A stretch of 64,000 nt of DNA from Escherichia coli (GTDB lineage Bacteria > Pseudomonadota > Gammaproteobacteria > Enterobacterales > Enterobacteriaceae): the NCBI RefSeq assembly GCF_001677475.2, contig NZ_CP015229.1. One strand, written 5' to 3'. Within the stretch, counting starts at the first letter, position 1. Every line of letters begins with the position of its first letter. Below are positions 9,449-32,845 of this stretch, in pieces. The notes below the pieces were generated by a model. That model was not told where the DNA came from, did no database searches, and saw only the letters and a list, made by a program, of their open reading frames with translations. A program made the translations under genes and the position numbers.

Positions 9449-12697
<3,249 letters not shown>

Positions 12698-12725
12698 AGG
12701 CAGTACATTAAAACAAGGAGCGGCA

Positions 12726-13637: not shown

Positions 13638-13652
13638 ACAACAGAGGTTGCT

Positions 13653-14474: not shown

Positions 14475-14484
14475 AGCAGGAAGC

Positions 14485-14605: not shown

Positions 14606-14611
14606 CCTCTT

Positions 14612-15400: not shown

Positions 15401-15858
15401 GGGCGGGACTTCCGTTTCCTGCGAGATTTTTTGGTGGAGGGGAGAGTGATTATCAGACCGACACTACCGAAAATAATGCCTGCTATGCCAACAAAGCCCC
15501 ATTTAAAAAAATTAACCCAGGGATTGTTTATTTCGGCTTGTTCTGGATGCCCTGGCGGATAATAGACATTGACTCTGCCACCTTCGCTATCTTCATAAAA
15601 ATCACTACCGATACTCGAATTGAAAATTAGCGTGTAATCTGGCGTAGGGCGAAAGGCAACCACTGGATACCAGGAGCCATTATCACCGACGTCGTTTGAG
15701 TGATTGTTGTACCAAACGACATCAACAATGATTCCTTCTGTATGAACCGCGCTTTTGGTAAAAGTAAAATGGTAACAAAAGATAATTGCAGAAATAACGA
15801 GCAATATCAGACCGATACCGAGAAAAGCGTGGGATAACACTTTACTGTCCTGACTCAT
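15397..15858 (-). CDS. ymfA: Inner-membrane protein YmfA
   Basis: ORF 15397..15900; start at [10 protein letters not shown] inferred (153 aa). Confidence 0.7.
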
Positions 15859-15915
15859 TAGCCACATCCTTGCTAAATAAAAAACGGGCGGTAATACCAC
15901 CGCCCGTTTGCTGAA

Positions 15916-16962
15916 TTAACGTCCTGCTTTCAGCTTCTGATAATACTCTTCATAAATGCTGCTGGCTGCGCCAACGTCATTCTGCCATTCACCATTTTTA
16001 ATGGTTTCAGCATCCGGGTAGAGCGTTTTATCGTTCGCCACTTCCGGGCTTAACAGCTTACGCGCCGCAAGGTTTGGCGTTGGATAACCGATAGTTTCGG
16101 CAACCTGTTTTGCCACATCCGGGCGCAGCAGGAAGTTGATCAGTTTCAGCGCGCCTTCTTTGTTTTTGGCATTCGCCGGAATTGCCAGGCTGTCCATCCA
16201 GAAAATGCCGCCTTCTTTCGGCCACACGACGTCAATTGGTGTACCCGCCTGGCGTGCAACGAAAGCAGAACCGTTCCAGATCATGCCGAGGTTAACTTCG
16301 CCTTCCATGTACGGGTTAGCCGGGTTATCGGAGTTAAACGCTGCGACGTTTGGCATCAGTTTTTTCAGCTCGTTATATGCAGCTTCAATCTCTTTCGGAT
16401 CGGTGGTGTTACCGGAATAGCCCAGCTTACGCAGCGCCATCTGGAACACTTCACGGGCATCGTCGGTCAGCAGCAGGCTGCCTTTGTACTCAGGCTTCCA
16501 CAGATCGGCCCAGCTGGTAACGGATTTCGGATCCACCGCATCACCGTTAACGCCAATCGCCGTCGCACCCCAGATATACGGAATGGAGTAGTCGTTATTC
16601 GGGTCAAAAGGCTTGTTGAGCATGTCTGGATCGAGATTGCTGAAGTTCGTTAACTTCGACTTGTCGATCTTCTGGATCATCCCTTCTTTACGCATTTTAT
16701 CGACGTAATAGGTTGAAGGAACCACCAGGTCATAGGCACCGTCTTTGTACGTTTTCAGCTTGGCATACATGGTTTCGTTCGACTCGTAAGTCGAATAGAT
16801 AACCTTAATACCGGTTTCTTTGGTGAACTGTTCAAGCAGTCCTGGCGGCACGTACTCGGTCCAGTTGTAGAAATACAGCGTGTTGTTGTCATCGGCGTGA
16901 GCGGCGCTCATGCCCAGTGCCAGAGCACCCGCCGCGAGCAGGTGGCGTGACCATTTTTTCAT
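15916..16962 (-). CDS. potD: Spermidine/putrescine ABC transporter periplasmic binding protein PotD
   Basis: 348-aa ORF with signal peptide; solute-binding protein in the pot operon. Confidence 0.9.
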   Translation of the reverse strand: MKKWSRHLLAAGALALGMSAAHADDNNTLYFYNWTEYVPPGLLEQFTKETGIKVIYSTYESNETMYAKLKTYKDGAYDLVVPSTYYVDKMRKEGMIQKIDKSKLTNFSNLDPDMLNKPFDPNNDYSIPYIWGATAIGVNGDAVDPKSVTSWADLWKPEYKGSLLLTDDAREVFQMALRKLGYSGNTTDPKEIEAAYNELKKLMPNVAAFNSDNPANPYMEGEVNLGMIWNGSAFVARQAGTPIDVVWPKEGGIFWMDSLAIPANAKNKEGALKLINFLLRPDVAKQVAETIGYPTPNLAARKLLSPEVANDKTLYPDAETIKNGEWQNDVGAASSIYEEYYQKLKAGR

Positions 16963-17753
16963 TTAACGTCCCCTGTGTTACCTTTCGTTTTATCACGAGC
17001 AATAAGCTGGCTGGCAATAACCATCACCAGCGACAGCACCAGTAATATGGTTGCCAGCGCGTTAACTTCCGGCGATACGCCGACTTTGACCATCGAATAA
17101 ATTTTTAACGGCAGAATTTCATAACTTGGTCCGGTGACGAACGAAGAAACTACCACATCGTCCATCGACAGGGTAAAGCTTAACACCCAGCCCGCCGCTA
17201 CCGCTGGCATTGCCAGTGGCAGAATGATTTTTCGCAGAATGGTAAATTCGCTGGCACCGAGATCTTTCGCCGCTTCCAGCATTCGCACGTCAAAACCTTT
17301 CAGGCGCGAATACACTGTCACCACCACAAATGGCAGGCAGAAGGTGATATGCGAGAACAGCAGCGACCAGAAGCCAAGCTGAATACCCAGCAGCATAAAC
17401 AGCACCAGCAGCGAAATCGCCATCACGATATCTGGTGACATCATCACTACAAACAGCATTCCGCTAACGAACGGCTTACCACGAAAGCGATAACGGTACA
17501 GTGCAACTGCCGTCAGTGAACCGATAAGCGTAGCAAACGTCGCCGAAAACACCGCCATTGTTAGTGAATGCTGCGCTGCCTGTAACAGGCTGTCGTTGTT
17601 CATCAGCAGGCTATACCATTTGGTGGTAAAACCCTGCCAGTTGATGCCAAAGCGCGAGCTGTTAAAGGAGTTCACAATCAAAATAATGATTGGGATATAC
17701 AGGTACGCGTAGATAGCGGTCATAAAACCGCCGCGAAGCAGTCGACCGATCAT
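16959..17753 (-). CDS. potC: Spermidine/putrescine ABC transporter permease PotC
   Basis: 264-aa polytopic permease; start ATG overlaps the potB stop (ATGA). Confidence 0.9.
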   Translation of the reverse strand: MIGRLLRGGFMTAIYAYLYIPIIILIVNSFNSSRFGINWQGFTTKWYSLLMNNDSLLQAAQHSLTMAVFSATFATLIGSLTAVALYRYRFRGKPFVSGMLFVVMMSPDIVMAISLLVLFMLLGIQLGFWSLLFSHITFCLPFVVVTVYSRLKGFDVRMLEAAKDLGASEFTILRKIILPLAMPAVAAGWVLSFTLSMDDVVVSSFVTGPSYEILPLKIYSMVKVGVSPEVNALATILLVLSLVMVIASQLIARDKTKGNTGDVK

Positions 17754-17800
17754 TCGAGTTCCACCTTCTTATTCATAAGGCGGGACACTTTCAGGATTTT
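17750..17800 (-). other. potB: 3'-terminal remnant of potB abutting the prophage left end (attL region)
   Basis: Minus-strand frame ending ...KVSRLMNKKVELE with stop overlapping potC start. No full-length potB upstream; the integrase gene follows within ~170 bp. Boundary is inferred. Confidence 0.5.
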
Positions 17801-17919
17801 GAATTTATTCAATTTTTTCCTTTCTCCAAAATCTCTCCAAAACGTTTCCCCAAAACTAGGCCACGCATTTTACAACACTTTTTTCCTGAGATGGTGACGG
17901 ATATTCCATATGGTGTTTG

Positions 17920-21902: not shown

Positions 21903-22094
21903 TTAAAGTCCTGCCGGTATTTCGTTATTATTAGTGTGAGTAGTTTTATCTACCGGATAACAGTTACCGGGAATTTTTTGTTCTGCTGCTGCAGCCATGC
22001 ATTCTTTCATTGAACCGTATAAGCCAGTCACCAGCTCAAGAGATTCGCCGGAAACAAGATAAACTGTCAGAACGAGTGCAAATGTTGTATTCAT
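21903..22094 (-). CDS. Hypothetical small protein (63 aa) with N-terminal hydrophobic segment
   Basis: ORF only; 4-bp overlap with upstream dicB-like gene suggests translational coupling. Confidence 0.35.
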   Translation of the reverse strand: MNTTFALVLTVYLVSGESLELVTGLYGSMKECMAAAAEQKIPGNCYPVDKTTHTNNNEIPAGL

Positions 22095-22279
22095 TGTTTA
22101 TATCCTTTTTGCAGCAGGTCCAGACGAGCCAGCATTGAAGGAATGCATACTTCATTTAACAGGTCCTGCTCGAGTTTTCTCTGCTTAATGGCGTCTTCAA
22201 TAAATGTTTTGTCTCCAGTGATAACGCCAATTTCGAAACGAAGTTCAGACGTGCTGGCATTACATGATAACTTTTCCAT
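22091..22279 (-). CDS. dicB: DicB-like cell-division inhibitor
   Basis: Internal start of ORF 22091..22384 gives a 62-aa protein (MEKLSCNASTSELRFEIGVITGDKTFIEDAIKQRKLEQDLLNEVCIPSMLARLDLLQKGYKQ) closely resembling recalled Qin DicB. Confidence 0.75.
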   Translation of the reverse strand: MEKLSCNASTSELRFEIGVITGDKTFIEDAIKQRKLEQDLLNEVCIPSMLARLDLLQKGYKQ

Positions 22280-22450
22280 TATCGCGTCCTCAACAATGAA
22301 TTTTGTGATGCGGTGCCTGGTGCCTCCAGGTGACGTTAACCAGTTAACAATTAACGCAGGATACAGAGAATCCACCCATAACACTGTTTTTGGTTTTTAC
22401 TGTTCCGCGTGCGCTGAGCCGCATTCACCGCATCACAAAATTCACTTTTA

Positions 22451-22508
22451 AAAAAGGGCGGCAGAGCAGTCACGGAGTAAAACTGATACCGCCAAATGTC
22501 ACCAGAAT
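22451..22508 (-). ncRNA. dicF: DicF-like small regulatory RNA
   Basis: Minus-strand sequence ATTCTGGTGACATTTGGCGGTATCAGTTTTACTCCGTGACTGCTCTGCCGCCC + T-run matches recalled E. coli DicF except 2-3 nt; lies ~170 nt upstream of dicB as in Qin. Confidence 0.7.
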
Positions 22509-22856
22509 ATTGATAACAGAGGGCGTTGTAGCGGGGTTGTCACTTAAGCGTATGGTCAACCTGACAACCCGGTGTCCTCAACGGGGAAAGGCGTCCCTCC
22601 CACCCCCGCCATACTTACCGCCGCGCCATTTCGCGGGTCGCCACAACCGGAAGCGCACGGTCGAATTAAATTTAACGACACCGTGCAGTGAGACGAACTT
22701 CGCCGTGCGCTTTCGTGTTGTGTGCCTGCTTTTAACCACGTCAGGCGAGGTGGTTTCCGTCATTCCCCAACGACAGGAAATCTGTATAATCTGGGTATCC
22801 CCAACGATCCAAGGAAATCATATGACAGAGCAAAGAGCACAAGCAGGTGATGGTGT

Positions 22857-23303
22857 ATGGACCGGGATGATATTCTTGACAGAATTTTTTATGGCTATTT
22901 TCTTGAGCAACTGTTTTCTGTAGCGACTGGTCGTCTCGATAAACTTCTCTCAGTAGTGAGTATTATCCTCGGTTCATCTGTCATTGGCGGATTCATTCCG
23001 GAAATTTCTGGCGTTTTTATTGTTGTGATCGCAACCGTCCAAACGATTTATGGATTCGGACAAAAGTCAGGTAATACCATGAGAAAATCCGCAGAATATT
23101 TGCAGCTTTTTGATGATGCAGAAAAATATTCTGATTCGGAATTGAAAATTCAGTTAAAAACTCTGGAAAAAACAGATGATCATATTTGGTCATCACTTAA
23201 AGATATTGCGATCTTAAAAACACAGATCAAAATAGGCGTCTCCATCGAACAACAAGAGAAGTTGCCCACAAAATCCAAATTGATGCGATTTCTTTGTGGT
23301 TAG
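22857..23303 (+). CDS. Hypothetical membrane protein, transcribed opposite to the early-left operon
   Basis: 148-aa ORF with one strongly hydrophobic segment; AT-rich relative to flanks; TATAAT at ~22784 and RBS-like AGGTGA upstream. Function unknown. Confidence 0.45.
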   Translation: MDRDDILDRIFYGYFLEQLFSVATGRLDKLLSVVSIILGSSVIGGFIPEISGVFIVVIATVQTIYGFGQKSGNTMRKSAEYLQLFDDAEKYSDSELKIQLKTLEKTDDHIWSSLKDIAILKTQIKIGVSIEQQEKLPTKSKLMRFLCG

Positions 23304-23392
23304 GAATATCCAGATTGTTAAAGAGCATGCCGGAGGTTTATCCGTGTCCGGCGCACGCACTTCATCTGCGGAGAACTACTTGAGCTCATTGG

Positions 23393-23608
23393 TCAGTAGT
23401 TTTCAATCACTCGCGAAACGTTTAATGCCGCGCTTTTTGCCAGAGTGGTAATATCCTGCTCCGCTGACACCAGTTCTTTAGAGAGGCGCTCTTTGTAGTC
23501 AGCGGCCTGCTTCAGGTCATTAATGGCGCGTATCTTTCCGCACATCCATTCGTAAATTTCATCCTCGGTATAGTCTGGTGCGATGATGACGGGTTCTCGT
23601 TTCTGCAT
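23393..23608 (-). CDS. Hypothetical protein (71 aa), early-left operon
   Basis: ORF only. Confidence 0.35.
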   Translation of the reverse strand: MQKREPVIIAPDYTEDEIYEWMCGKIRAINDLKQAADYKERLSKELVSAEQDITTLAKSAALNVSRVIENY

Positions 23609-23637
23609 ACTGATTCCTCGCGGTGCCGCTTCGCTTA

Positions 23638-23766
23638 TCAGCCGTTAGATTTTGCCGAACTGGAAAGCGCCTGTTTAAACTCACTGAAGCTGAGAGCTTC
23701 TTCGCCTTCGGCAAGGTCTTCGAAGTATTCTTCGTAAGCCTTTTCCATGATTGCGTCGAAATCCAT
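23638..23766 (-). CDS. Hypothetical small acidic protein (42 aa)
   Basis: Hand translation: MDFDAIMEKAYEEYFEDLAEGEEALSFSEFKQALSSSAKSNG; tightly packed with neighbours. Confidence 0.3.
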   Translation of the reverse strand: MDFDAIMEKAYEEYFEDLAEGEEALSFSEFKQALSSSAKSNG

Positions 23767-23767
23767 A

Positions 23768-23923
23768 TCACTCACCTGAATTTCTTTCCAGCCAGCGACG
23801 AGCGCCAGTTTCGGTTTTAAACGTTTTACTTTTGGTATACGTCATCGCGGTGAATGTGCCGTCCTGGTTGGGAAACACGCCGTACACCAGAGATTCGTTG
23901 TTGCCAAGATCGATAGTATCCAT
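23768..23923 (-). CDS. Hypothetical small protein (51 aa)
   Basis: Internal start of ORF 23768..24010 (MDTIDLGNNESLVYGV...) preceded by GAGG Shine-Dalgarno; first gene of the leftward operon. Confidence 0.35.
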   Translation of the reverse strand: MDTIDLGNNESLVYGVFPNQDGTFTAMTYTKSKTFKTETGARRWLERNSGE

Positions 23924-24039
23924 GTTGACCTCATTTCCCCTTAACGCTGGGGTAGCGGAACTAAAAACCTGCTGCGCTGTTATACAAAGTGTTCCCGCCG
24001 TCATGTTCATACGCCTCGGGCTGGCTACTTAATCCCTGA

Positions 24040-24200
24040 CCACTACCGGGTAACTCTAGGTATTGCCCTGTATTGTGTGGGACGGGATGGGTTGGTATGG
24101 GAAAACTATAGGAAATGCCTAATTGCTTGTCAATAGGCTATGCCTAATGATTTGGGTGCGACCTAATAGGTGATGGTTTGTGGGAGAGGTAGTAGGAGTT
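24040..24200. promoter_or_regulatory. Putative OL/PL-type operator-promoter region
   Basis: Seen in sequence: repeated TGCCTAAT / TAGGCTATGCCTAA motifs between the repressor 3' end and the leftward operon. Confidence 0.4.
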
Positions 24201-24241
24201 AACTAACGGGAACTAGGAATTTCCCGTCGGACCATATAAGT

Positions 24242-24718
24242 TTAAGTTCCTGTCTTGGTGATGTTCTGGCTTTTCCGTTTTGATTCTTGATTTTTCAGAT
24301 AGTTAGCTACCTTCATTTCCATTGCGGCAATGTAGGCGCGAACGTCATGATCAACCCAACTAGGCTCCGTAGCATTTCCAGATAAGAGGAAAGCCACAAT
24401 TGCTCTTTTTTCATCAGAGGCGGCTTGATAAAGGCTGTTTATGTCTAAAAGTTCACTTTTTGTATCTGAAGTGGATGGGGTTGGTATGGGGTATTCGTTA
24501 AGCCCCCAATGCTCTGGACCAACCACATCAGAAAAGAAACGCCATAGTTCTGGAAGTTTGTCTTTACTTATCGAACCTTTCTTAATCCAGTCATGGATTG
24601 ATGGTGGTTGGACTTTGAAATGACGTGCGATTTCCGCCTTTGATTTGACGGCTCCTGATGCAATTTTTTTGTTAATGGCCTGCTCTATCGCTCGGCCTAA
24701 GTCTTTACCACTAAGCAT
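24242..24718 (-). CDS. Phage repressor, XRE-type HTH, no S24 peptidase domain (RacR-like size)
   Basis: 158-aa ORF; N-terminal HTH (SKAEIARHFKVQPPSIHDWIKKGSISKDKLPEL); divergent from cro-like gene; C-terminus lacks Ser/Lys peptidase motifs. Confidence 0.7.
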   Translation of the reverse strand: MLSGKDLGRAIEQAINKKIASGAVKSKAEIARHFKVQPPSIHDWIKKGSISKDKLPELWRFFSDVVGPEHWGLNEYPIPTPSTSDTKSELLDINSLYQAASDEKRAIVAFLLSGNATEPSWVDHDVRAYIAAMEMKVANYLKNQESKRKSQNITKTGT

Positions 24719-24842
24719 TGCTTAATAGTCTCCTATGCGCATCGCGTTAGGCAATACCTACTCTCGAAGCGTTAGGCATAGCCTATTGACAATCACATTA
24801 GGCTAAGCCTAATATTATTGTGTGTTTTTTGGAGTTCATTCG
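24719..24842. promoter_or_regulatory. Putative OR/PR-PRM operator region
   Basis: Seen in sequence: perfect palindrome TTAGGCTAAGCCTAA plus related half-sites GCGTTAGGCA and GTTAGGCATAGCCTATTGACA in the divergent intergenic region. Confidence 0.5.
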
Positions 24843-25166
24843 ATGAAAAAAGATAACTATTCATTCAAACGAGCTTGTGCTGTTGTCGGTGGGCAATCAG
24901 CAATGGCTAGGCTTTTAGGTGTATCTCCTCCAAGCGTAAATCAATGGATCAAAGGTGTACGTCAGTTGCCTGCTGAGAGATGTCCTGCGATTGAACGAGC
25001 AACAAAAGGTGGTGTCCTGTGTGAAGAACTTCGTCCTGATGTTGATTGGACATACTTACGACGCTCGTCATGTTATTCGCAGAATATGTCGATGAAGCAA
25101 CCAAATGACGAAAACGATCATACCCGAAGCATCAAGAGGCAAATGATTCATGAAAATCAAACATGA
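24843..25166 (+). CDS. Cro/YdaS-like HTH protein
   Basis: ORF 24822..25166; start at MKKDNYSF inferred; HTH (QSAMARLLGVSPPSVNQWIKG); divergent from repressor. Confidence 0.6.
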   Translation: MKKDNYSFKRACAVVGGQSAMARLLGVSPPSVNQWIKGVRQLPAERCPAIERATKGGVLCEELRPDVDWTYLRRSSCYSQNMSMKQPNDENDHTRSIKRQMIHENQT

Positions 25167-25575
25167 GCATATCCGCATGGCGATGAATGCCTGGGCATAC
25201 CCTGATGGTGAGAAAGTTCCTGCAGCTGAAATAGCCCGGACTTATTTCGAACTGGGAATGACGTTCCCGGAACTGTACGACGACAGCCATCCGGAAGCCC
25301 TGGCCCGTAATACCCAGAAAATTTTCCGTTGGCTGGATAAAGACACCCCTGATGCTGTTGAAAAAATGCAGGCTCTGTTACCGGCGATCGAAAAGGCGAT
25401 GCCGCCTTTGCTGGTGGCCCGTATGCGCAGCCACAGTTCTGAGTATTACCGTGAGATTGTCGAACGGAGGGATCGGTTGGTGAAAGATGTCGACGATTTT
25501 GTTGCGTCAGCGGTTGTTTTGTATGACCAGATGAATCGCGGCGGCCCGGCAGGAAATGCCGTGGTGATGCACTAA
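25150..25575 (+). CDS. YdaT-like / CII-position protein
   Basis: 141-aa ORF directly after cro-like gene; size and position match the Rac racR-ydaS-ydaT arrangement. Assignment by position and size only. Confidence 0.4.
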   Translation: MKIKHEHIRMAMNAWAYPDGEKVPAAEIARTYFELGMTFPELYDDSHPEALARNTQKIFRWLDKDTPDAVEKMQALLPAIEKAMPPLLVARMRSHSSEYYREIVERRDRLVKDVDDFVASAVVLYDQMNRGGPAGNAVVMH

Positions 25576-25582
25576 CAGCACG

Positions 25583-26566
25583 GTGTTCGGGGGTTTTATG
25601 AGCAGCAAGCTTCATGGTCTTGTCTGGGAAGGATGCGCCTTCACCGGCATGATCTTATCCCGGGTGGCAGTGATGGCCCGTCTTGCAGACTACAGCAATG
25701 ACGAGGGCGTGTCATGGCCTGCTATTGAAACTATCCGGCGTCAGATCGGTGCAAGAAGTGAATCCACAGTGAAATCGGCTATTGCAGAACTGGCGAAAGA
25801 GGGCTGGCTGACGAAGGAAGAGCGTAAGGTCGGTGGGCGTAATGTAAGCAATATCTATCGGCTTAATGTGGAAAAACTCGAAGCAGCAGCTGCGGCGGCG
25901 CGTGAGTCATATAAACCGAAAAGAAAAATTAGCCCGGCAAAAAATGACCCGTTAACAGTTGACCCGTCAAATATTGACCCCTCAACGGTTGACCCGTCAA
26001 ATTTTGATGGATCAACTGTTGATAAAAAACTGCCGATTAGGGGGACGATGATTGACCCCGATCAGTCAGTATTAAAACCTGATCCGTCAGATGAAAGATC
26101 TTCTTGTCCTGACGTTTCACTGCCGGACAAAAAACAATCATCACCAGTTGAGCGATTTCTGGAGAAACACCCGGATGCGCATACCTGGAATGTGCAGAAG
26201 CGACAGTGGGGTACCCGTGAGGATGTCGCCTGTGCGCAGTGGATTTGGGGACGGGTTGTTGCGTTGTATGAACAGGCCGCCAGTGATGATGGTGAGGTAT
26301 CACGCCCCAGAGAACCTAACTGGACGACCTGGGCGAATGATGTGCGCATGATGCGTATGCTGGATGGACGTAGTCACCGGCAGATTTGTGAAATGTTTGG
26401 GCGTGTCCAGCGGGATTCGTTCTGGGTAAAAAACATCATGAGTCCGGCAAAACTCCGGGAAAAATGGGATGAGCTGGTTATTCGTCTGGGGCGTTCGCCT
26501 GTACAGCGTTGCGTGAATCACATTTCTGAACCGGATACCGAAATTCCGCCGGGGTTCAGGGGGTAA
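25583..26566 (+). CDS. Replication initiator (lambda O-like) with internal origin iterons
   Basis: 327-aa ORF; N-terminal winged-helix-like region; central repeated peptide DPLTVDPSNIDPSTVDPSNFD encoded by DNA iterons. Confidence 0.6.
   Translation: MFGGFMSSKLHGLVWEGCAFTGMILSRVAVMARLADYSNDEGVSWPAIETIRRQIGARSESTVKSAIAELAKEGWLTKEERKVGGRNVSNIYRLNVEKLEAAAAAARESYKPKRKISPAKNDPLTVDPSNIDPSTVDPSNFDGSTVDKKLPIRGTMIDPDQSVLKPDPSDERSSCPDVSLPDKKQSSPVERFLEKHPDAHTWNVQKRQWGTREDVACAQWIWGRVVALYEQAASDDGEVSRPREPNWTTWANDVRMMRMLDGRSHRQICEMFGRVQRDSFWVKNIMSPAKLREKWDELVIRLGRSPVQRCVNHISEPDTEIPPGFRG
25944..26018. repeat. Replication-origin iterons (about 5 direct repeats of TTGACCCGTCAA-like units, ~15 bp period)
   Basis: Seen in sequence: ATGACCCGTTAA, TTGACCCGTCAA, TTGACCCCTCAA, TTGACCCGTCAA, TTGATGGATCAA inside the O-like gene. 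Confidence 0.55.
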
Positions 26567-26608
26567 GTGCTGATTTGAGGTCATGAAGTTATTTTCTCAG
26601 GAGAGTTT

Positions 26609-27010
26609 ATGGGGGCTATTTATACCGAAGAACAGCGGGAAAGGTTACAGCGTCACATCGTTGACCTTGTACGTAAAAACGGGCGTATGACAATGCCACA
26701 ACTGGCATCGGCAACATATGCTTCACATGATTCCATTCGCCGGTACCTGAAGATGCTGGTGAGCCAGGGCGAAGTGTATGTTGTCAGCGGAAAAGGGGTA
26801 TTCCTTTCAGAGAGAGTTTACCGTGAATGGCTGGCAAGTTCGGCAAAAAAATCAAGGGTTATCCGCAAACCAGCACAAAAACAGGGTAAGGCCGGAGTAC
26901 AACCCTACGACCGGCACCAGAACGTAATTTGCCGGGAATGTCGTAACAGCGAATCAATGCAGCGGGTACTGGCTTTTTACAGGGGTGGATTTCAGGAGCT
27001 CGTATCGTGA
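26609..27010 (+). CDS. Hypothetical replication-region protein (133 aa)
   Basis: ORF only; occupies the position of a P/helicase-loader gene but is too small and lacks ATPase motifs. Confidence 0.35.
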   Translation: MGAIYTEEQRERLQRHIVDLVRKNGRMTMPQLASATYASHDSIRRYLKMLVSQGEVYVVSGKGVFLSERVYREWLASSAKKSRVIRKPAQKQGKAGVQPYDRHQNVICRECRNSESMQRVLAFYRGGFQELVS

Positions 27011-27315
27011 AAAAGTGGGTGCGTGCCGAGATACTGATTCTACGGCAGTGTGCGGGAACAATGACGGTGGAATGCATCGGGATGCTTATTGGTCGTAGTG
27101 AGGCTGCGGTCAGAACGAAAGCGCGGGAACTGGGTATTAGTATGATGTTACGGGGTGATTATCACCAGTCAGCAAAATATCCGCAGAGTGATATTGAGCT
27201 GGCGCGACAGCTGCATCAACGTGGCGTGTCCAGGAGAGAAATCGCCAGAAAATTTGGAATGCCGCTGCGCACAGTGAATAACTACGTTTATTTCGACAGG
27301 AGGGTGTCTGCGTGA
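27007..27315 (+). CDS. Hypothetical HTH protein (102 aa)
   Basis: Possible HTH (GVSRREIARKFGMPLRTVNNY). Confidence 0.35.
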   Translation: MKKWVRAEILILRQCAGTMTVECIGMLIGRSEAAVRTKARELGISMMLRGDYHQSAKYPQSDIELARQLHQRGVSRREIARKFGMPLRTVNNYVYFDRRVSA

Positions 27316-27557
27316 AAATCCTGTATCAGGATTACGGCCCGGTGGGACAGGTGGTTATCAGCAGTACTGTAATGGAGTTCCGGAAGCATAACCGTGTGGT
27401 GGATGCAGTGCTGTTAGCCTGTCCGGGGATATCGGCGAGCCGTGCAGGTGTGTTTTTTATGAAGACGAAGTTATATGGCAGTACAGCGTGGATAAAGAAG
27501 GCGTACCGGGTAGCGTTGCAGGAGGTAAACAGTGAGCGAATCGGCAACCATTCTTGA
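27312..27557 (+). CDS. Hypothetical protein (81 aa)
   Basis: ORF only, overlapping neighbours. Confidence 0.3.
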   Translation: MKILYQDYGPVGQVVISSTVMEFRKHNRVVDAVLLACPGISASRAGVFFMKTKLYGSTAWIKKAYRVALQEVNSERIGNHS

Positions 27558-28020
27558 TATGTCCTGTGGCAGTCGTATGTTCTGGTTCGATAAGAATGAC
27601 GACCGGGCGATATTTAGCGATATCAGAAAAGAAGAGCACACATTATGTGATGGACGACGCCTGATAATTAGCCCTGACCTGATAGCAGATTTTCGTGCAT
27701 TACCATTTGCAGACGCATCGTTTCCGGTTGTTGTATTCGACCCTCCGCATCTTGAGCGTGTTGGTGATAACGCCTGGATGGGAAAGAAATATGGACGGCT
27801 GAATAAAGATACCTGGCGTGATGATTTGCGGCAGGGATTTAAAGAAGCCTTTCGTGTGTTGTGGCCACACGGTGTTCTGATTTTTAAATGGAATGAAACG
27901 CAAATACCTGTCCGCCAGATATTGGCACTAACCGACGCGAAACCAATCATCAGCCAGCGCACCGGTAAGAACGATAAAACACATTGGATTATTTTTGTGA
28001 AGGAAGCGACCAGTGGGTAA
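27532..28020 (+). CDS. Phage N6-adenine DNA methyltransferase (small Dam-like)
   Basis: 162-aa ORF with DPPH motif (VVFDPPHLERVG), characteristic of N6-adenine/N4-cytosine methyltransferases; nin-region position typical of lambdoid phages. Confidence 0.55.
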   Translation: MSESATILDMSCGSRMFWFDKNDDRAIFSDIRKEEHTLCDGRRLIISPDLIADFRALPFADASFPVVVFDPPHLERVGDNAWMGKKYGRLNKDTWRDDLRQGFKEAFRVLWPHGVLIFKWNETQIPVRQILALTDAKPIISQRTGKNDKTHWIIFVKEATSG

Positions 28021-28267
28021 ATCAAAATGCCAGGTTTATGGCAACAAGATAGAACCGTGTACGGCACTGGCAAACTCCCTTGAGCATGATGCTGAATACA
28101 CGACGCGAAAAGGTCTGCTGATATACGAAATCTGGAATGAGAGTTTAACTCGCGGCCCTGATTTGGTGATGTTGCGATCCGGTGAATTTTCTAAATCACC
28201 AGTTCGGGTTTCATTTTTCCCGTTCTGCGGTGAAAGTCTGAAAACGTGGGAGAACAGAAATGAATGA
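28013..28267 (+). CDS. Hypothetical nin-region protein (84 aa)
   Basis: ORF only. Confidence 0.3.
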   Translation: MGKSKCQVYGNKIEPCTALANSLEHDAEYTTRKGLLIYEIWNESLTRGPDLVMLRSGEFSKSPVRVSFFPFCGESLKTWENRNE

Positions 28268-28571
28268 AATTAGAGAAATACCAGTAGAACGTGATGAATA
28301 TGGCTGCTGGACACATCCAGAATATGAAAAATTCTGTGACGGTCGGGAATATATTTCAACGGAAGAGTTTAACGCCTGGATGAAGGAAAATAATCTTCAG
28401 TGGACTATTTGCAGCATGGATGAAGATTATTTAAATCCGGTTGCAGATGACCCCGATATTTCCGCCTGGGAACCGGAACGACCAGAGGGCGAAGGCTGGT
28501 TTATTAGCTCCATTCATGATACTGAAGATGGTCCGGTTTGTGTCTGGTTGCGAAACAAGGTGATGGCATAG
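28260..28571 (+). CDS. Hypothetical nin-region protein (103 aa)
   Basis: ORF only. Confidence 0.3.
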   Translation: MNEIREIPVERDEYGCWTHPEYEKFCDGREYISTEEFNAWMKENNLQWTICSMDEDYLNPVADDPDISAWEPERPEGEGWFISSIHDTEDGPVCVWLRNKVMA

Positions 28572-28874
28572 ATGAGAATAGAAAAAGCGAAAGCACAGCT
28601 CAGGATAATGCTTGCTGGTCCGGCTGCGAGTTATATGACACATTCACCAGCCATAAAGAAGGTTCTTGATGAACTGGAAGCCAAAGACAAGCGCATTGCA
28701 GAACTGGAGGCGAGGGAAATCCAGTTACCTGCTGGCTTCGACCTTCGATATGGACACCCGATAAATGCTGATGAGCGACATGTGATGATACCTAAAGAAA
28801 ATGGCAACTGGATTTATCGGACTGACTTAGAGCACGTACTACGTGTTGCAGGGATTCGAATTAAAGGAGACTAA
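28572..28874 (+). CDS. Hypothetical nin-region protein (100 aa)
   Basis: ORF only. Confidence 0.3.
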   Translation: MRIEKAKAQLRIMLAGPAASYMTHSPAIKKVLDELEAKDKRIAELEAREIQLPAGFDLRYGHPINADERHVMIPKENGNWIYRTDLEHVLRVAGIRIKGD

Positions 28875-29232
28875 CGTGGAAATAAAACCAGAAGATGAGT
28901 TAAGTAATATTGTTTTATTTCCGGTAAAAGAGGATGACCCACGTAATCAGGTTAATTTTCTTTATGAGCCATCGGAAAGACCATATTGTCATCACGCCTC
29001 TGTCCGGGTTGACGAAAAAGAGCGTCAGGTCCGCTGTAAAATCTGCGGTGCAGTTGTGGAGCTATTTGACTGGATGCTCTCTGTGGCGAAAAGAGAAACC
29101 AGACTGGCAGATGATGTAAGGATCTTGCGCCAGGAGGAACGGGAAAGGCGGAGAAATATAGAAAAGCTAATTCAGATTGAGCGTAACGTGAAAGCGCGGA
29201 TACGCAGGGTGACAAAATCCAGAACTGAATAA
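28843..29232 (+). CDS. Hypothetical nin-region protein with CxxC zinc-ribbon motif
   Basis: ORF; CKICGAVVE motif; basic C-terminus. True start possibly GTG near 28877. Confidence 0.3.
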   Translation: MLQGFELKETNVEIKPEDELSNIVLFPVKEDDPRNQVNFLYEPSERPYCHHASVRVDEKERQVRCKICGAVVELFDWMLSVAKRETRLADDVRILRQEERERRRNIEKLIQIERNVKARIRRVTKSRTE

Positions 29233-29280
29233 TTAAATTTAGCTCTGTTAAAAATTTAATCCTTAACCGGAGGTATATCA

Positions 29281-29493
29281 ATGTCAAACGCACAGAAAGT
29301 TATTAACGCTGAAAAATATAACGAGTGGGTGAAAAAGTTCTCAGAGCAGATTTTTAAAATTACTGGCGACGAGAATGCGGCAAAAAATGAATTAGAGCCG
29401 TGGACACCTGAAGGTGTCGACCCAAATTATTGCTGGTGGGATGTTGATCCAGTTGATGCTGCAAATGAAGCTATGAGTTATCACAACGATTAA
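29281..29493 (+). CDS. Hypothetical protein (70 aa)
   Basis: ORF only. Confidence 0.3.
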   Translation: MSNAQKVINAEKYNEWVKKFSEQIFKITGDENAAKNELEPWTPEGVDPNYCWWDVDPVDAANEAMSYHND

Positions 29494-29528
29494 TGTCAGG
29501 AGGCCGCCCGAAAGGGCGGTAATGAAAA

Positions 29529-30362
29529 GTGACTGAATTAACCAAAGAGCAATTAATCGAAGAAGCCAAATTAAAAATAGCGATTGCGAAATGCTACCCC
29601 AGTTCAGGGATGGCACGGGTAGAGGGCGAGTTATTCAAAATTGCACTGGCATCGCTGGAAGCAGAACCAATAGGTGCTTTCCACATTGTAGAACAGCAAG
29701 TTGACGGAACAAGTTACTATATCAAGGATGGGGAATGGCCTATTGATACTGGGATTATTGAAGTCTACGCCGCCTCACCGATGACGGTAGTGCTGAACGA
29801 TGTATCTGGACCTCTTGCTCTTGCTTACAAAGAGCTTACACCTGCGATTATGCGCAACCATATCGCTGTATTCGAACGATACGGAATAACCCCAAACGAT
29901 AGCATTACTACAATTCATGCGCTTCGAATTGCGCTGGATGGCATAGAGCGGAGCGACGCCATGCTTCATGGACGTCAGCCATGCCATCAAATTACCGCCT
30001 CAATGGCAAAAGCTATTGCGCTTAAACTTGGTGCCGAACTGAATAACGAAGAAGCAGAGATTTTCGCGGATGGGTATAACACCGCCATGCTTCATGCCGA
30101 AAACTTTCGGGAAAATAAGAATTCGTCAACCAATAATTTTCGGATAACCTCGGAAACGTCAACCAACTCTCCGGCAATCCCTGATGAGGTGTTGTCCGCA
30201 ATCCTGAAGGTCGCCAGGCTTCGTGCAGATTTCGATGCTTCTGAAGGTGACAGGCGAGGTATCGGTGGTTGTCTGGATGAGGCCGAGCAAGAACTTATCG
30301 TTACCATTAACAAATACGCCAGTCAGATCGCAGTAGAAGCGATACAGGGGGCGCACCAATGA
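29529..30362 (+). CDS. Hypothetical nin-region protein (277 aa)
   Basis: ORF only. Confidence 0.35.
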   Translation: MTELTKEQLIEEAKLKIAIAKCYPSSGMARVEGELFKIALASLEAEPIGAFHIVEQQVDGTSYYIKDGEWPIDTGIIEVYAASPMTVVLNDVSGPLALAYKELTPAIMRNHIAVFERYGITPNDSITTIHALRIALDGIERSDAMLHGRQPCHQITASMAKAIALKLGAELNNEEAEIFADGYNTAMLHAENFRENKNSSTNNFRITSETSTNSPAIPDEVLSAILKVARLRADFDASEGDRRGIGGCLDEAEQELIVTINKYASQIAVEAIQGAHQ

Positions 30363-30470
30363 GCCGGCCCGATGCATTTGCAGGCGTTGCTATAGCTATT
30401 GCTTTTCCAGTATATGTTATTTGTCGGTGGGGGTAAAAACGTTCGCCGGAATTCACACCAAGGGAGGGAA

Positions 30471-30575
30471 TATGTCGGATGATATTTCACTGGTAATGGA
30501 AGGCGCTCTGGCTGTTATTGCTGTTGTGGGTGTTTACTGCCTGGTTGTGTTTTTGATGGATCGCCTGGGGAACTG
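30471..30575 (+). CDS. Putative small hydrophobic peptide (34 aa)
   Basis: Hand translation: MSDDISLVMEGALAVIAVVGVYCLVVFLMDRLGN, single TM-like peptide; not in ORF track (<60 aa). Confidence 0.3.
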
Positions 30576-30763
30576 AATTCATTCCGTATGGGAATTCCCA
30601 TATCGGGCAAAAACGGTTTGCTGTAAAGCGAGAGTTAAGTAGAATTGCTGCGGGTGCTTGAGGCTATCTGCCTCGGGCATGCCGCCGTAAGGCAGACAGA
30701 GAAAAGCCCCAGTTAACATTACGCGTCCTGCAAGACGCTTAACATTAATCTGAGGCCATATCT

Positions 30764-30976
30764 ATGACTTGCACACGTAGGTTAGCCTCTTACGTGCCGA
30801 AAGGCAAGGAGAAGCAGGCTATGAAGCAGCAAAAGGCGATGTTAATCGCCCTGATCGTCATCTGTTTAACCGTTATAGTGACGGCACTGGTAACGAGGAA
30901 AGACCTCTGCGAGGTACGAATCCGAACCGGCCAGACGGAGGTCGCTGTCTTCACAGCTTACGAACCTGAGGAGTAA
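30764..30976 (+). CDS. mok: Mok-like in-frame N-terminal extension reading frame of the hok toxin gene
   Basis: 70-aa ORF MTCTRRLASYVPKGKEKQAMKQQK... containing the hok frame, as recalled for chromosomal mokC/hokC. Confidence 0.5.
   Translation: MTCTRRLASYVPKGKEKQAMKQQKAMLIALIVICLTVIVTALVTRKDLCEVRIRTGQTEVAVFTAYEPEE
30821..30976 (+). CDS. hok: Hok/Gef-family type I toxin
   Basis: MKQQKAMLIALIVICLTVIVTALVTRKDLCEVRIRTGQTEVAVFTAYEPEE, near-identical in pattern to recalled Gef/HokC. Confidence 0.8.
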   Translation: MKQQKAMLIALIVICLTVIVTALVTRKDLCEVRIRTGQTEVAVFTAYEPEE

Positions 30977-31044
30977 GAGACCTGGCGGGGGAGAAATCCC
31001 TCGCCACCTCTGATGTGTCAGGCTTCCTCAACGCACCCGCACTT

Positions 31045-31073
31045 AACCCGCTTCGGCGGGTTTTGTTTTTTCT
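31045..31073 (+). terminator. Rho-independent terminator downstream of hok
   Basis: Seen in sequence: hairpin CCCGCTTCGGCGGG followed by T-run. Confidence 0.45.
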
Positions 31074-31140
31074 GTGCATTCTGGTTTACAATTCGCACGC
31101 CAGCCTGAACAACTGGCACCTGCTGCGCCAGCAGAGACAA

Positions 31141-31422
31141 CCGATGGCGCACGATACCAAATTACACAATTCTGATGATTCTGCCGTTTTTGCCAGCAGG
31201 CACGGGCTGCGTTCTCACGCATTCAAATATGACTGGTATCAGCACGATCCCTGCACTGAAGAACAGGCCGAATGGCTGATTCATAACTACCGCAGACGTG
31301 GGTATGAGTTTAAGAAAGCCCTCAGTCTCGATTATCGTCACTGGATAATCTACGTCAGACTCCCTTATTCCGAACGCCCGCCGCGTCCATCCCGCACATT
31401 CCAGCAACGGATCTGGAGGTAA
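31141..31422 (+). CDS. Hypothetical protein (about 92 aa from internal Met of ORF 31015..31422)
   Basis: ORF only; start uncertain. Confidence 0.3.
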   Translation, partial: PMAHDTKLHNSDDSAVFASRHGLRSHAFKYDWYQHDPCTEEQAEWLIHNYRRRGYEFKKALSLDYRHWIIYVRLPYSERPPRPSRTFQQRIWR

Positions 31423-31423
31423 C

Positions 31424-32473
31424 GTGCGGGTATTACTTCGACCTGTTCCGGTGCCGGAACTCGGGCTGGTGGTCCTTAAGCCGGGCCGTGAATCCATGCA
31501 GGTATTTCATAACCCTCGAGTGCTGGTGGAGCCGGAACCGAAAAGCATGCGCGGTCTGCCGTCCGGAGTTGTTCCTGCCGTTCGCCAGCCGCTGGCGGAA
31601 GATAAATCATTGCTGCCATTTTTCAGCGACGAACGGGTGATTCGTGCTGCCGGCGGCGCTGGTGCACTGTCTGACTGGCTCCTGCGTCATGTTAAATCCT
31701 GCCAGTGGCCTCATGGTGACTACCATCACAGTGAAACCGTCATACATCGTTACGGTACCGACGCGATGGTGTTGTGCTGGCACTGCGACAACCAGCTGCG
31801 TGACCAGACCTCAGAATCACTTGAGCAACTTGCTCAACAAAACCTGACAGCATGGATGATTGACGTCATCCGTCACGCAATAAGCGGTGCGCAGGAGCGG
31901 GAATTATCGCTGGCTGAATTATCCTGGTGGGCTGTCTGCAATCAGGTGGCGGACGCACTACCGGAGGTAGTATTACGTCGTTCTCTGGGGTTACGTGCGG
32001 AAAAAATTCGCTCGGTGTACCGCGAAAGCGACATCATACCGGGAGAGCAGACAGCCACCAGCATACTGAAGCAGCGCACAAAAAATATTGTGCTATCGCC
32101 TCACGTCCACCAGCAACAGAACTCACCGCAGGAAAAGGCGGTTGTCAGCATTGCTGTTGATCCGGAGTCTCCGGAATCTTTCATGAAGCGACCTAAACGT
32201 CGCCGTTGGGTAAATGAGAAATACACTCGCTGGGTAAAGACACAGCCGTGTGCGTGTTGTGGTCAACCAGCCGACGATCCCCATCACCTGATTGGTCATG
32301 GTCAGGGCGGAATGGGAACAAAATCCCACGATATTTTCACGCTACCGCTGTATCGGGAGCATCACAACGAGCTTCATGCGGATCCGCTGGCGTTCGAAGA
32401 AAAGCATGGTTCCCAGATTGATTTAATTTTTCGTTTTCTTGATCGCGCCTTTGCAACCGGCGTGCTCGGGTAA
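31424..32473 (+). CDS. DUF968-like phage protein with C-terminal Cys/His cluster
   Basis: 349-aa ORF; C-terminal CACCGQPADDPHHLIGHGQGGMGTKSHD...REHHNELH resembles the DUF968 family found upstream of rusA/Q. Family assignment from memory. Confidence 0.45.
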   Translation: MRVLLRPVPVPELGLVVLKPGRESMQVFHNPRVLVEPEPKSMRGLPSGVVPAVRQPLAEDKSLLPFFSDERVIRAAGGAGALSDWLLRHVKSCQWPHGDYHHSETVIHRYGTDAMVLCWHCDNQLRDQTSESLEQLAQQNLTAWMIDVIRHAISGAQERELSLAELSWWAVCNQVADALPEVVLRRSLGLRAEKIRSVYRESDIIPGEQTATSILKQRTKNIVLSPHVHQQQNSPQEKAVVSIAVDPESPESFMKRPKRRRWVNEKYTRWVKTQPCACCGQPADDPHHLIGHGQGGMGTKSHDIFTLPLYREHHNELHADPLAFEEKHGSQIDLIFRFLDRAFATGVLG

Positions 32474-32485
32474 AAGAGGTTACTG

Positions 32486-32845
32486 ATGCGTATAGAATTT
32501 GTTTTGCCTTACCCGCCGACGGTGAACACCTACTGGCGACGCCGTGGCAGCACGTATTTTATATCGGAAGCCGGTAAGCGTTATCGCCGTGATGTGGCAC
32601 TTATTGTTCGCCAGCAGCGGCTGAAATTAAATCTGTCCGGAAGGCTGGCGATAAAGGTTATCACAGAGCCGCCGGATAAGCGCCGTCGTGATCTGGACAA
32701 TATCCTGAAAGCACCGCTGGATGCGCTGACGCATGCGGGGCTTCTCATAGACGACGAGCAGTTTGATGAAATCAATATTGTGCGCGGTCTGCCTGTTCCT
32801 GGTGGGCGGCTGGGGATAAAAATCACAGAGCTGGAGTGCGCATGA
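32486..32845 (+). CDS. rusA: Holliday-junction resolvase RusA
   Basis: 119-aa ORF aligning by eye with E. coli RusA (PYPPTVNTYWRRRG, RRRDLDN, GRL...ITE). Confidence 0.8.
   Translation: MRIEFVLPYPPTVNTYWRRRGSTYFISEAGKRYRRDVALIVRQQRLKLNLSGRLAIKVITEPPDKRRRDLDNILKAPLDALTHAGLLIDDEQFDEINIVRGLPVPGGRLGIKITELECA

What the first reader, a model, noticed from the sequence alone, without database searches (positions are those of the whole stretch)
24040..25575. Rac-like immunity module with a non-cleavable repressor and palindromic operators
The repressor (158 aa) has an XRE HTH but no S24 peptidase domain, so it is probably not RecA-cleavable. It is divergent from a Cro/YdaS-like gene and a 141-aa YdaT-position gene, the size pattern of Rac racR-ydaS-ydaT, where YdaS/YdaT are toxic when derepressed. 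Both flanking regions carry TTAGGC-based palindromes (perfect TTAGGCTAAGCCTAA at ~24800). How the prophage is induced is unclear, since the late-region antirepressor looks broken.
Basis: partly seen in the sequence, partly recalled or inferred. Interest (0 to 1): 0.5.

Follow-up and report, generated by a model that had tools for sequence, protein, structure and literature searches.

The report
RacR-type prophage immunity switch, already known

Summary
Observation and interpretation both hold, but the object is already described.

- **Repressor.** The 158-aa protein (24242-24718, minus strand) is 92% identical to K-12 RacR and passes NCBI's RacR equivalog model. It has no S24 peptidase domain, no Ala-Gly site, and an all-helical predicted fold.
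- **Right arm.** The divergent gene is YdaS (85% identical to K-12). The 141-aa gene is a YdaT of the CP-933P type: about 96% identical to PDB 8bt1, only 31% to Rac YdaT.
- **Operators.** The TTAGGC-N3-GCCTAA palindromes form two clusters flanking racR. Each overlaps a near-consensus promoter (leftward PL, rightward PR). Seven of the eight TTAGGC/GCCTAA hexamers in the 64-kb window lie here. The right cluster and PR match elements mapped experimentally in K-12 (PMC9638921).
- **Late antirepressor-like gene.** The gene at 39248-39816 is broken by a frameshift and a stop codon. A sister prophage with an identical immunity region lacks it entirely, so it is unlikely to be the inducer.
- **Induction.** I found no LexA box in the window. 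An IS21 element interrupts the tape-measure gene, so the prophage is defective.
- **Modest new point.** Some relatives carry the same DNA-binding domain and operators fused to an S24 domain.

The parts
24105..24133 (-). PL: leftward early promoter, TTGACA-17-TATAGT (11 of 12 consensus positions)
   Evidence: Promoter scan. It is conserved in K-12 Rac. The function is inferred. K-12 genes on this side (ydaG, ydaF, kilR and others) rise 40-70-fold when RacR is lowered (PMC11014345).
24108..24122 (.). OL1 operator ATAGGAAATGCCTAA, overlapping the -10 and spacer of PL
   Evidence: The half-sites are conserved in K-12. RacR binding here is inferred, not shown.
24133..24147 (.). OL2 operator ATAGGCTATGCCTAA, abutting the -35 of PL. 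It lies 25 bp from OL1 and is the mirror copy of O2.
   Evidence: (inverted repeat I1).
24152..24173 (.). Possible weak third left site (TTGGGTGCGACCTAA / ACCTAATAGGT); the block is conserved in K-12
   Evidence: 9 of 12. Uncertain.
24242..24718 (-). racR: 158-aa repressor, the CI analogue. Helical N-terminal HTH domain, disordered linker, three-helix C-terminal domain. No S24 domain.
24711..24725 (.). Operator overlapping the racR start codon (CTAAGCATTGCTTAA). This is O3 of Wisniewska et al. 2022 and also the off-target site of C.Csp231I.
   Evidence: It is identical in K-12.
24747..24761 (.). Operator TTAGGCAATACCTAC
24772..24786 (.). Operator TTAGGCATAGCCTAT, abutting the -35 of PR
   Evidence: The spacer differs from K-12 but the half-sites are kept.
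24798..24812 (.). Operator TTAGGCTAAGCCTAA with perfect arms, between the -35 and -10 of PR. This is the highest-affinity O1 in K-12.
   Evidence: DNase I footprint in K-12 (PMC9638921).
24786..24815 (+). PR (PydaST): TTGACA-18-TAATAT
   Evidence: The same hexamers were mapped by primer extension and mutagenesis in K-12.
24843..25166 (+). ydaS: Cro analogue, 107 aa
   Evidence: 85% identical to K-12 YdaS.
24933..24965 (-). Counterpart of the reverse promoter PracR4 (PRE analogue). The -10 TACGCT is kept. The -35 is CTGACG instead of TTGACG.
   Evidence: One search compared with PMC11879457.
25143..25160 (.). YdaT-box ATGATTCATGAAAATCAA, spanning the ydaT start codon
   Evidence: It is identical to the box mutated in K-12 (PMC11879457) and one base from the CP-933P OM site (PMC9986795).
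25150..25575 (+). ydaT: CII analogue of the CP-933P type. The mosaic junction with Rac-type DNA is near 25175-25180.
39248..39816 (+). Pseudogene of a P22_AR_N antirepressor-like protein in the lysis cassette (frameshift near 39383, stop near 39515)

Best explanation
This is the lambda-style immunity region of a defective Rac-like lambdoid prophage inserted between potC and potB.

**How it works**
- RacR (the CI analogue) binds 15-bp operators of the form (T/A)TAGGC-N3-GCCTA(T/A), presumably as dimers with cooperativity through its helical C-terminal domain.
- The operators form two clusters. The right cluster (four sites, 24711-24812) covers the strong rightward promoter PR and the racR promoter region. 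RacR therefore shuts off ydaS-ydaT and replication, and autoregulates itself.
- The left cluster (two good sites, 24108-24147) is a mirror-image copy. It covers a near-consensus leftward promoter PL that drives the early-left operon, which includes dicB, the exonuclease, xis and int.
- YdaS is the Cro analogue.
- YdaT is the CII analogue. It binds the YdaT-box at its own start codon and boosts a reverse promoter inside ydaS that feeds racR.
- RacR has no autoprotease domain, so RecA cannot cleave it. Derepression needs a fall in RacR level, titration, excess YdaS, or an as yet unknown antirepressor.

**Present role.** The prophage cannot make tails because IS21 sits in its tape-measure gene. 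The switch now mainly keeps harmful early genes silent and gives immunity to homoimmune phages.

**Shown versus inferred.** Shown here: homology, motif positions and enrichment, promoter matches, absence of S24, and the pseudogene. Shown in K-12 by others: RacR footprints on the right cluster, PR, the YdaT-box, and the reverse promoter. Inferred: RacR binding at the left cluster, cooperativity or looping, and the induction route.
For: - **Identity of the genes:**
- **PGAP annotation** of the 100% identical stretch as racR / HTH / YdaT family.
- **Operator enrichment and clustering:**
- **Promoters:** exactly two promoter-like sites in 23900-25300, and each is overlapped by operators.
- **Conservation pattern:** half-sites are conserved while spacers vary against K-12.
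- **Same two-cluster layout elsewhere:** Klebsiella phage KpF5, whose repressor is 57% identical, and locus L008.
- **Published K-12 work:** footprints, PydaS hexamers and operator consensus (PMC9638921). RacR depletion raises the left-operon genes 40-70-fold and causes excision (PMC11014345). YdaT-box and PracR4 (PMC11879457).
- **No S24 domain:**
- **Defectiveness:**
Against: - No experiment exists on this exact sequence.
- The K-12 racR promoter -10 boxes are not conserved here: PracR2 AGTAAG is TTCGAG and PracR3 GAGAAT is GAGACT. The PracR4 -35 is weakened. The racR promoter map therefore cannot be transferred unchanged.
- Binding at the left cluster has not been shown in any paper I read.
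- In K-12, YdaS did not repress racR, so the Cro analogy is incomplete.
Confidence: 0.85

Rival explanations
1. Gifsy-style induction. RacR is inactivated by a small antirepressor that binds it. The antirepressor would be encoded elsewhere in this prophage or in another prophage of the same cell, possibly under LexA control.
For: - Lemire et al. 2011 place RacR and DicA in the family of short, non-cleavable repressors that are candidates for antirepression (PMC3121763).
- RacR has a separate small helical C-terminal domain that could serve as a docking surface.
- In relatives, the same DNA-binding domain and operators are coupled to an S24 domain instead. This shows that the C-terminal domain is the exchangeable signal-input module.
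Against: - No credible LexA box exists anywhere in the window. The best CTG-N10-CAG match reaches 12 of 20 consensus positions and lies at 55033, at the boundary between the IS21 insert and the tail-gene region.
- No dinI homologue or intact antirepressor is annotated in the sister prophage.
- The only antirepressor-like gene is a pseudogene in the late operon.
- No RacR antirepressor is reported in the papers I read.
Confidence: 0.25
2. The broken P22_AR_N gene was the cognate antirepressor of this prophage, and its decay has locked the prophage in.
For: The gene is truly inactivated. Intact copies carry a P22_AR_N domain.
Against: - It lies between the endolysin and Rz genes in the late operon, which is expressed only after derepression.
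- The sister prophage in strain 08-00022 has a 100% identical immunity region and no such gene: about 60 bp stand in place of 1057 bp.
- Intact copies occur up to 9 times per genome. That copy number argues against a dedicated one-to-one pairing with RacR immunity.
Confidence: 0.05
3. RacR-YdaS-YdaT is an atypical toxin-antitoxin or toxin-repressor module rather than a phage switch. This is the reading behind the Pfam names YdaS_toxin and YdaT_toxin and the 2017 papers.
For: In K-12, racR is essential unless ydaS-ydaT are removed, and ectopic YdaS or YdaT is toxic (PMC5700373, PMC5700377).
Against: - The genetic context is a complete lambdoid early region, with PL and PR, a replication gene, a Q-like gene, lysis genes and structural genes.
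- YdaT binds DNA as a CII equivalent (PMC9986795, PMC11879457).
- The CP-933P-type YdaT present here showed no toxicity (PMC8630535).
- Jobling's critique (PMC5917428).
Confidence: 0.05
4. RacR is a divergent LexA-like, RecA-cleavable repressor.
For: Some relatives with the same N-terminal domain are S24 fusions.
Against: - The 158-aa protein has no S24 hit.
- It has no AG, CG or GDSM motifs.
- Its C-terminal domain is about 65 residues and all-helical, whereas S24 domains are beta-rich.
- It does not align with the S24 part of the fused relatives.
Confidence: 0.02

Closest known systems
racR-ydaS-ydaT immunity region of cryptic prophage Rac, E. coli K-12 (b1356-b1358)
   Same: - RacR is 92% and YdaS 85% identical.
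- The intergenic length is the same (124 versus 123 bp).
- The PR hexamers are the same.
- The operator half-sites and their spacing are the same.
- The start-codon operator is the same, and the YdaT-box is identical.
- The left-hand operator and promoter cluster is also present in K-12.
   Different: - YdaT is only 31% identical. The Rac-type DNA ends about 25 bp into ydaT.
- The -10 boxes of PracR2 and PracR3 and the -35 of PracR4 differ.
- The left operon carries dicB rather than kilR.
- The integration site is potC/potB rather than ttcA.
- This prophage still has its late genes.
CP-933P / Sp12 immunity region of E. coli O157:H7 (paaR2-ydaS-ydaT)
   Same: - YdaT is about 96% identical to the crystallised CP-933P protein, PDB 8bt1.
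- The YdaT operator is at the ydaS/ydaT junction.
- The repressor lacks a peptidase motif.
   Different: The repressor here is RacR, not PaaR2. No paaA2-parE2 toxin-antitoxin pair follows the repressor.
Phage lambda cI-cro-cII immunity region with OL/PL and OR/PR
   Same: - A repressor gene is flanked by two operator clusters that overlap divergent early promoters.
- Sites are spaced about 25 bp apart.
- Cro and CII analogues lie on the right.
- A CII-dependent reverse promoter is present.
   Different: - There is no S24 autoprotease domain, so no RecA-stimulated cleavage.
- The proteins are unrelated in sequence.
- One operator overlaps the repressor start codon.
- The two clusters are about 0.66 kb apart, compared with 2.3 kb in lambda (the lambda figure is from my own knowledge).
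Gifsy-1/-2/-3 repressors of Salmonella (GfoR, GtgR, GfhR) with LexA-controlled antirepressors
   Same: A short lambdoid repressor without a cleavage domain. RacR is explicitly listed as a member of that group (PMC3121763).
   Different: No LexA box, dinI homologue or small antirepressor gene was found in the window.

Membership tests
RacR repressor (NCBIfam NF049929, equivalog) | Whole-protein score above the curated cut-off | tested here: met
   246.8 bits against a cut-off of 200, covering 1-149 of 150 profile positions. The protein is 92% identical to K-12 RacR.
RacR repressor (NCBIfam NF049929, equivalog) | Encoded divergently from ydaS-ydaT with a roughly 120-bp regulatory intergenic region | tested here: met
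   The intergenic region is 124 bp here and 123 bp in K-12.
RacR repressor (NCBIfam NF049929, equivalog) | Operators (T/A)TAGGC-n3-GCCTA(T/A) overlapping PydaS and the racR start | tested here: met
   compared with the consensus published in PMC9638921.
RacR repressor (NCBIfam NF049929, equivalog) | Protein binds these sites and represses ydaS-ydaT | not testable with these tools
   Shown only for the K-12 protein (PMC9638921, PMC5700373).
LexA / lambda CI type self-cleaving repressors (Peptidase S24) | C-terminal S24 peptidase domain with a Ser-Lys dyad | tested here: not met
   No PF00717 hit. No GDSM motif. The C-terminal domain is all-helical and about 65 residues. S24-bearing relatives align only over residues 1 to about 75.
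LexA / lambda CI type self-cleaving repressors (Peptidase S24) | Ala-Gly or Cys-Gly cleavage site in the linker | tested here: not met
   There is no AG or CG dipeptide in the 158 residues.
Lambdoid immunity region (OL/PL - repressor - OR/PR - cro - cII) | Two operator clusters flanking the repressor gene, each overlapping an outward-facing early promoter | tested here: met
   The same layout is found in KpF5 and L008.
Lambdoid immunity region (OL/PL - repressor - OR/PR - cro - cII) | CII-type activator with a binding site near a reverse promoter for repressor establishment | tested here: met
   The YdaT-box at 25143-25160 is identical to the functional K-12 box. A promoter counterpart lies at 24933-24965 with one -35 change. 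Activity was not tested.
YdaT family (Pfam PF06254; structure 8bt1) | Sequence match to the crystallised CP-933P YdaT over its full length | tested here: met
   E = 3.3e-89, residues 2-141, 6 differences.
Gifsy-type antirepressor-controlled switch | Repressor lacking a cleavage domain | tested here: met
Gifsy-type antirepressor-controlled switch | LexA-controlled small antirepressor gene outside the immunity region | tested here: inconclusive
   No LexA box in the 64 kb. [quoted passage not shown]
Type II toxin-antitoxin system (as the Pfam names YdaS_toxin / YdaT_toxin suggest) | Toxin neutralised by direct binding of a cognate antitoxin, with operon autoregulation by the complex | not testable with these tools
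   The literature argues against it (PMC5917428, PMC8630535, PMC11879457). The genomic context here is a phage early region.

The most novel reading that the evidence does not exclude
RacR-type immunity comes in two interchangeable induction versions. The same DNA-binding domain and the same TTAGGC-N3-GCCTAA operators are joined either to an S24 self-cleaving domain or to a short three-helix domain. The short domain of the RacR form would then be the receiver for a still unidentified, non-SOS signal. Candidates are a trans-acting antirepressor from a co-resident prophage, or a host stress regulator such as OxyR, which binds the K-12 intergenic region. Comparing the two forms could identify that signal.
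Probability: 0.15. Interest if true: 0.45.

Novelty: already known. Interest (0 to 1): 0.15.

Why it matters
It matters little as a discovery.

- The same 1.6-kb stretch occurs at 80% coverage or more in 529 of 5,426 complete E. coli genomes.
- RefSeq already names the gene racR.
- The operators, promoters, YdaT-box and regulatory logic have been dissected in K-12 Rac and CP-933P.

The one open question it touches is what natural signal inactivates RacR-type repressors, since they cannot be cleaved by RecA. This window gives no direct handle on that. The prophage is defective, it has no LexA box, and its only antirepressor-like gene is a decayed accessory cassette.

The S24-fused relatives with identical operators are a small, useful pointer for anyone studying that question.

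Tried and rejected
- **LexA boxes.** I searched with the exact CTGT-N8-ACAG pattern, a consensus score of at least 13 of 20, and all CTG-N10-CAG matches. Nothing credible turned up. The exact CTGT-N8-ACAG matches lie in the structural and tail-gene region, with two found against 0.67 expected by chance.
- **Source genome.** I tried to place the window in a complete E. coli genome. The best record covers only 79% of 22000-42000, so I annotated the window-specific segments myself.
- **Fold search.** Searching the RacR model against the PDB gave only weak XRE/Cro/CI-type matches (E >= 0.14). This supports an HTH domain and says nothing about the C-terminal domain.
- **Solved structures.** A sequence search against solved structures found nothing for RacR.
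- **Evidence of inducibility.** I looked for an inducible phage with RacR immunity. Record vB_EcoS-683R6 occurs in only one relevant paper, a genome-sequence analysis of phages located in clinical E. coli isolates; I did not read that paper. So I found no induction evidence. Jobling 2016 on Rac-like LT-II prophages is not held in the library.
- **Terminator call.** The scan flagged 24797-24813 as terminator-like. I rejected this because the site lies between the -35 and -10 of PR and corresponds to the footprinted O1 operator.
Full report
**What is at the coordinates**

The region contains three ORFs:
- a 158-aa ORF on the minus strand (24242-24718);
- a divergent ORF whose ATG is at 24843 (107 aa, ending at 25166);
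- a 141-aa ORF (25150-25575) that overlaps the previous one by 17 nt.

A replication-initiator O-like gene follows at 25583-26566 (phrog_391).

A megablast of 24000-25600 against 5,426 complete E. coli genomes found a 100% identical copy in strain 08-00022. It also found 529 genomes covering at least 80% of the query. RefSeq annotates the three genes there as racR, an HTH protein, and a 'toxin YdaT family protein'.

That copy sits in a lambdoid prophage between potC and potB, with integrase, excisionase, exonuclease, dicB, a Q-like gene, lysis genes, head genes and tail genes. The window itself is not from that strain. Blocks of 96-100% identity are interrupted by four window-specific segments, and no complete genome covers more than 79% of 22000-42000.

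**Identity of the proteins**

- **Repressor.** The 158-aa protein is 92% identical over its full length to K-12 RacR. It scores 246.8 bits on NCBIfam's RacR equivalog model, above the cut-off of 200.
- **Cro analogue.** The divergent protein is 85% identical to K-12 YdaS.
- **CII analogue.** The 141-aa protein is only 31% identical to Rac YdaT. It differs at just 6 of 140 aligned residues from the crystallised YdaT of cryptic prophage CP-933P, PDB 8bt1.
- **Mosaic junction.** DNA similarity to Rac runs from 23936 to 25173 at 86% and ends about 25 bp into ydaT.

The module is therefore a mosaic: Rac-type repressor, operators and Cro analogue, joined to a CP-933P-type CII analogue. The CP-933P YdaT was reported to have no toxic effect (PMC8630535), unlike Rac YdaT.

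**Non-cleavable repressor**

- Pfam gives no S24 peptidase hit, only sub-threshold HTH-type matches at residues 22-61.
- The sequence has no Ala-Gly or Cys-Gly dipeptide and no GDSM motif.
- An AlphaFold model built on 42 homologues (mean pLDDT 82) is entirely helical. It has helices at 4-61, a disordered linker around 72-92, and three helices at 93-152.
- Fold matches are weak (E >= 0.14). The higher-probability ones are XRE/Cro/CI-type HTH domains, including the lambda cI N-terminal domain, and none is an S24 peptidase.

A database search gave an informative contrast. Three relatives of 226-235 aa (P0101, P0102, P0114) share the N-terminal ~75 residues at 70-86% identity. They continue into a Pfam S24 domain with Ala-Gly, GDSM and Lys-Arg motifs, and RacR does not align with that part.

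The idea itself is not new. Lemire et al. 2011 already listed RacR and DicA among short repressors unlikely to self-cleave (PMC3121763).

**Operators and promoters**

Enrichment and clustering:
- The motif TAGGC-N3-GCCTA with at most one mismatch occurs five times in the 64-kb window against 0.97 expected. None of 100 shuffles reached five.
- All five lie in two clusters, at 24109-24146 and 24748-24811.
- Seven of the eight TTAGGC/GCCTAA hexamers in the window fall within 24040-24830.

The right cluster has four sites:
- TTAGGCTAAGCCTAA at 24798-24812;
- TTAGGCATAGCCTAT at 24772-24786;
- TTAGGCAATACCTAC at 24747-24761;
- CTAAGCATTGCTTAA at 24711-24725, across the racR start codon.

The left cluster has two sites, ATAGGCTATGCCTAA (24133-24147) and ATAGGAAATGCCTAA (24108-24122), plus a possible weak third site.

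Neighbouring sites are 25-26 bp apart. A 29-nt inverted repeat (90% complementary) shows that the cores of the two clusters are mirror copies.

The promoter scan of 23900-25300 returned exactly two sites:
- TTGACA-18-TAATAT, pointing right, at 24786-24815;
- TTGACA-17-TATAGT, pointing left, at 24133-24105.

In each case one operator abuts the -35 box and another covers the spacer and -10 box.

Against K-12 Rac, the half-sites are conserved while the 3-nt spacers and the DNA between sites vary. The same two-cluster layout, with the identical TTAGGCTAAGCCTAA site, occurs in two other places:
- Klebsiella phage KpF5, whose repressor is 57% identical;
- beside the S24-fused relative P0102.

**What is already published**

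- **Wisniewska et al. 2022 (PMC9638921).** They footprinted RacR on the K-12 intergenic region and derived the consensus (T/A)TAGGC-n3-GCCTA(T/A). They showed that one operator overlaps the racR start codon. They mapped PydaS to the same TTGACA and TAATAT hexamers.
- **The 2023 paper from that group (PMC11014345).** Lowering RacR raises ydaG, ydaF, kilR, ydaE, racC and others 40-70-fold and leads to Rac excision. This is the behaviour expected if the left promoter is RacR-controlled.
- **The 2025 paper (PMC11879457).** YdaT binds a YdaT-box, ATGATTCATGAAAATCAA, and activates a reverse promoter inside ydaS, the PRE analogue. The CP-933P YdaT cross-activates it.

The window carries that exact 18-mer at 25143-25160. 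I found no explicit description of the left operator cluster in the papers I read. It is the expected lambdoid OL and is present in K-12 as well, so I do not count it as a discovery.

Small differences from K-12:
- The -10 boxes of PracR2 and PracR3 read TTCGAG and GAGACT instead of AGTAAG and GAGAAT.
- The -35 of the reverse promoter reads CTGACG instead of TTGACG.

**Induction and the 'broken antirepressor'**

Between the endolysin gene (38442-38975) and the Rz gene (ORF 39764-40435) lies a gene split into three ORF fragments. Its N-terminus reads MNMMTVPFHGNSLYVVNHNGEPYVPMKPVV. Aligned with intact 189-aa homologues from ETEC1747 (99.4% identical) and O157:H7, it has a 1-bp deletion near 39383 and a GAA->TAA change near 39515. 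The intact protein has a P22_AR_N domain.

It does not, however, explain induction:
- The gene lies in the late lysis operon.
- The sister prophage with the identical immunity region has about 60 bp where the window has 1057 bp.
- Intact copies occur up to nine times per genome.

No credible LexA box was found in the window by three searches. No dinI-linked locus of the Gifsy type is annotated.

The prophage is in any case defective. An IS21-family element (IstA and IstB) occupies a 2.4-kb segment inside the tape-measure gene.

The most likely present role of the switch is to keep the early operons silent, including a dicB homologue at 22091-22279. It would also confer immunity. What natural signal inactivates RacR-type repressors remains open in the literature I read. 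Known triggers in K-12 are:
- repressor dilution on transfer (zygotic induction, cited in PMC5917428);
- interference by a foreign C protein;
- YdaS excess (PMC11014345).

OxyR also represses PydaST (PMC11879457).

**Verdict**

The object is an already known, experimentally characterised kind of phage switch in a common sequence variant. Interest is low. The only point that goes slightly beyond the literature I read is that the RacR DNA-binding domain and its operators also occur joined to an S24 domain. This marks the C-terminal domain as the exchangeable signal-input part.

Noticed in passing
window 52610-55021: An IS21-family insertion sequence (IstA 499 aa at 52704-54203, IstB 251 aa at 54200-54955) interrupts the tape-measure gene. 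The segment is absent from the sister prophage of strain 08-00022.
   Followed up: partly
window 39248-39816: A P22_AR_N antirepressor-like gene in the lysis cassette is a pseudogene (1-bp deletion plus a nonsense change). A hairpin followed by a T-run (about 39085-39115) lies upstream of it.
   Followed up: yes
window 22091-22279 (-): A homologue of the cell-division inhibitor DicB (NF049927, 121.7 bits) lies in the leftward early operon. It is presumably silenced by RacR here rather than by DicA as in Qin.
   Followed up: partly
proteins P0101, P0102, P0114; locus L008 2935-3007 and 4473-4510: These relatives carry the RacR N-terminal domain (70-86% identical) fused to an S24 peptidase domain. 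The locus of P0102 has the same TAGGC-N3-GCCTA operator clusters on both sides of the gene.
   Followed up: partly
window 24727-24770 and 24960-24965: The racR promoter elements mapped in K-12 are not conserved: PracR2 -10 AGTAAG is TTCGAG, PracR3 -10 GAGAAT is GAGACT, and PracR4 -35 TTGACG is CTGACG. Yet this variant is present in hundreds of genomes.
   Followed up: no
window 25173-25180: A recombination junction between Rac-type and CP-933P-type DNA lies just after the shared YdaT-box and the conserved MKIKHEHI start of YdaT.
   Followed up: partly
window 1-17900 (host flank) and the whole window: The host genes from mfd to potC are only about 97% identical to E. coli 08-00022, and no complete E. 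coli genome contains the whole prophage. The source may be a divergent Escherichia lineage or a draft genome.
   Followed up: no
window 36097-36432 (-) and about 30764-30976 (+): By position, ORFs here correspond to prophage-borne homologues of the anti-adapter IraM and the HokD toxin. This rests on blocks 98-99% identical to the annotated sister prophage.
   Followed up: no
L007 (Klebsiella phage KpF5) 3149-4303: In KpF5 a DUF450 gene is inserted between the RacR-like repressor and its left operator cluster, like a moron in the position of lambda rexAB.
   Followed up: no
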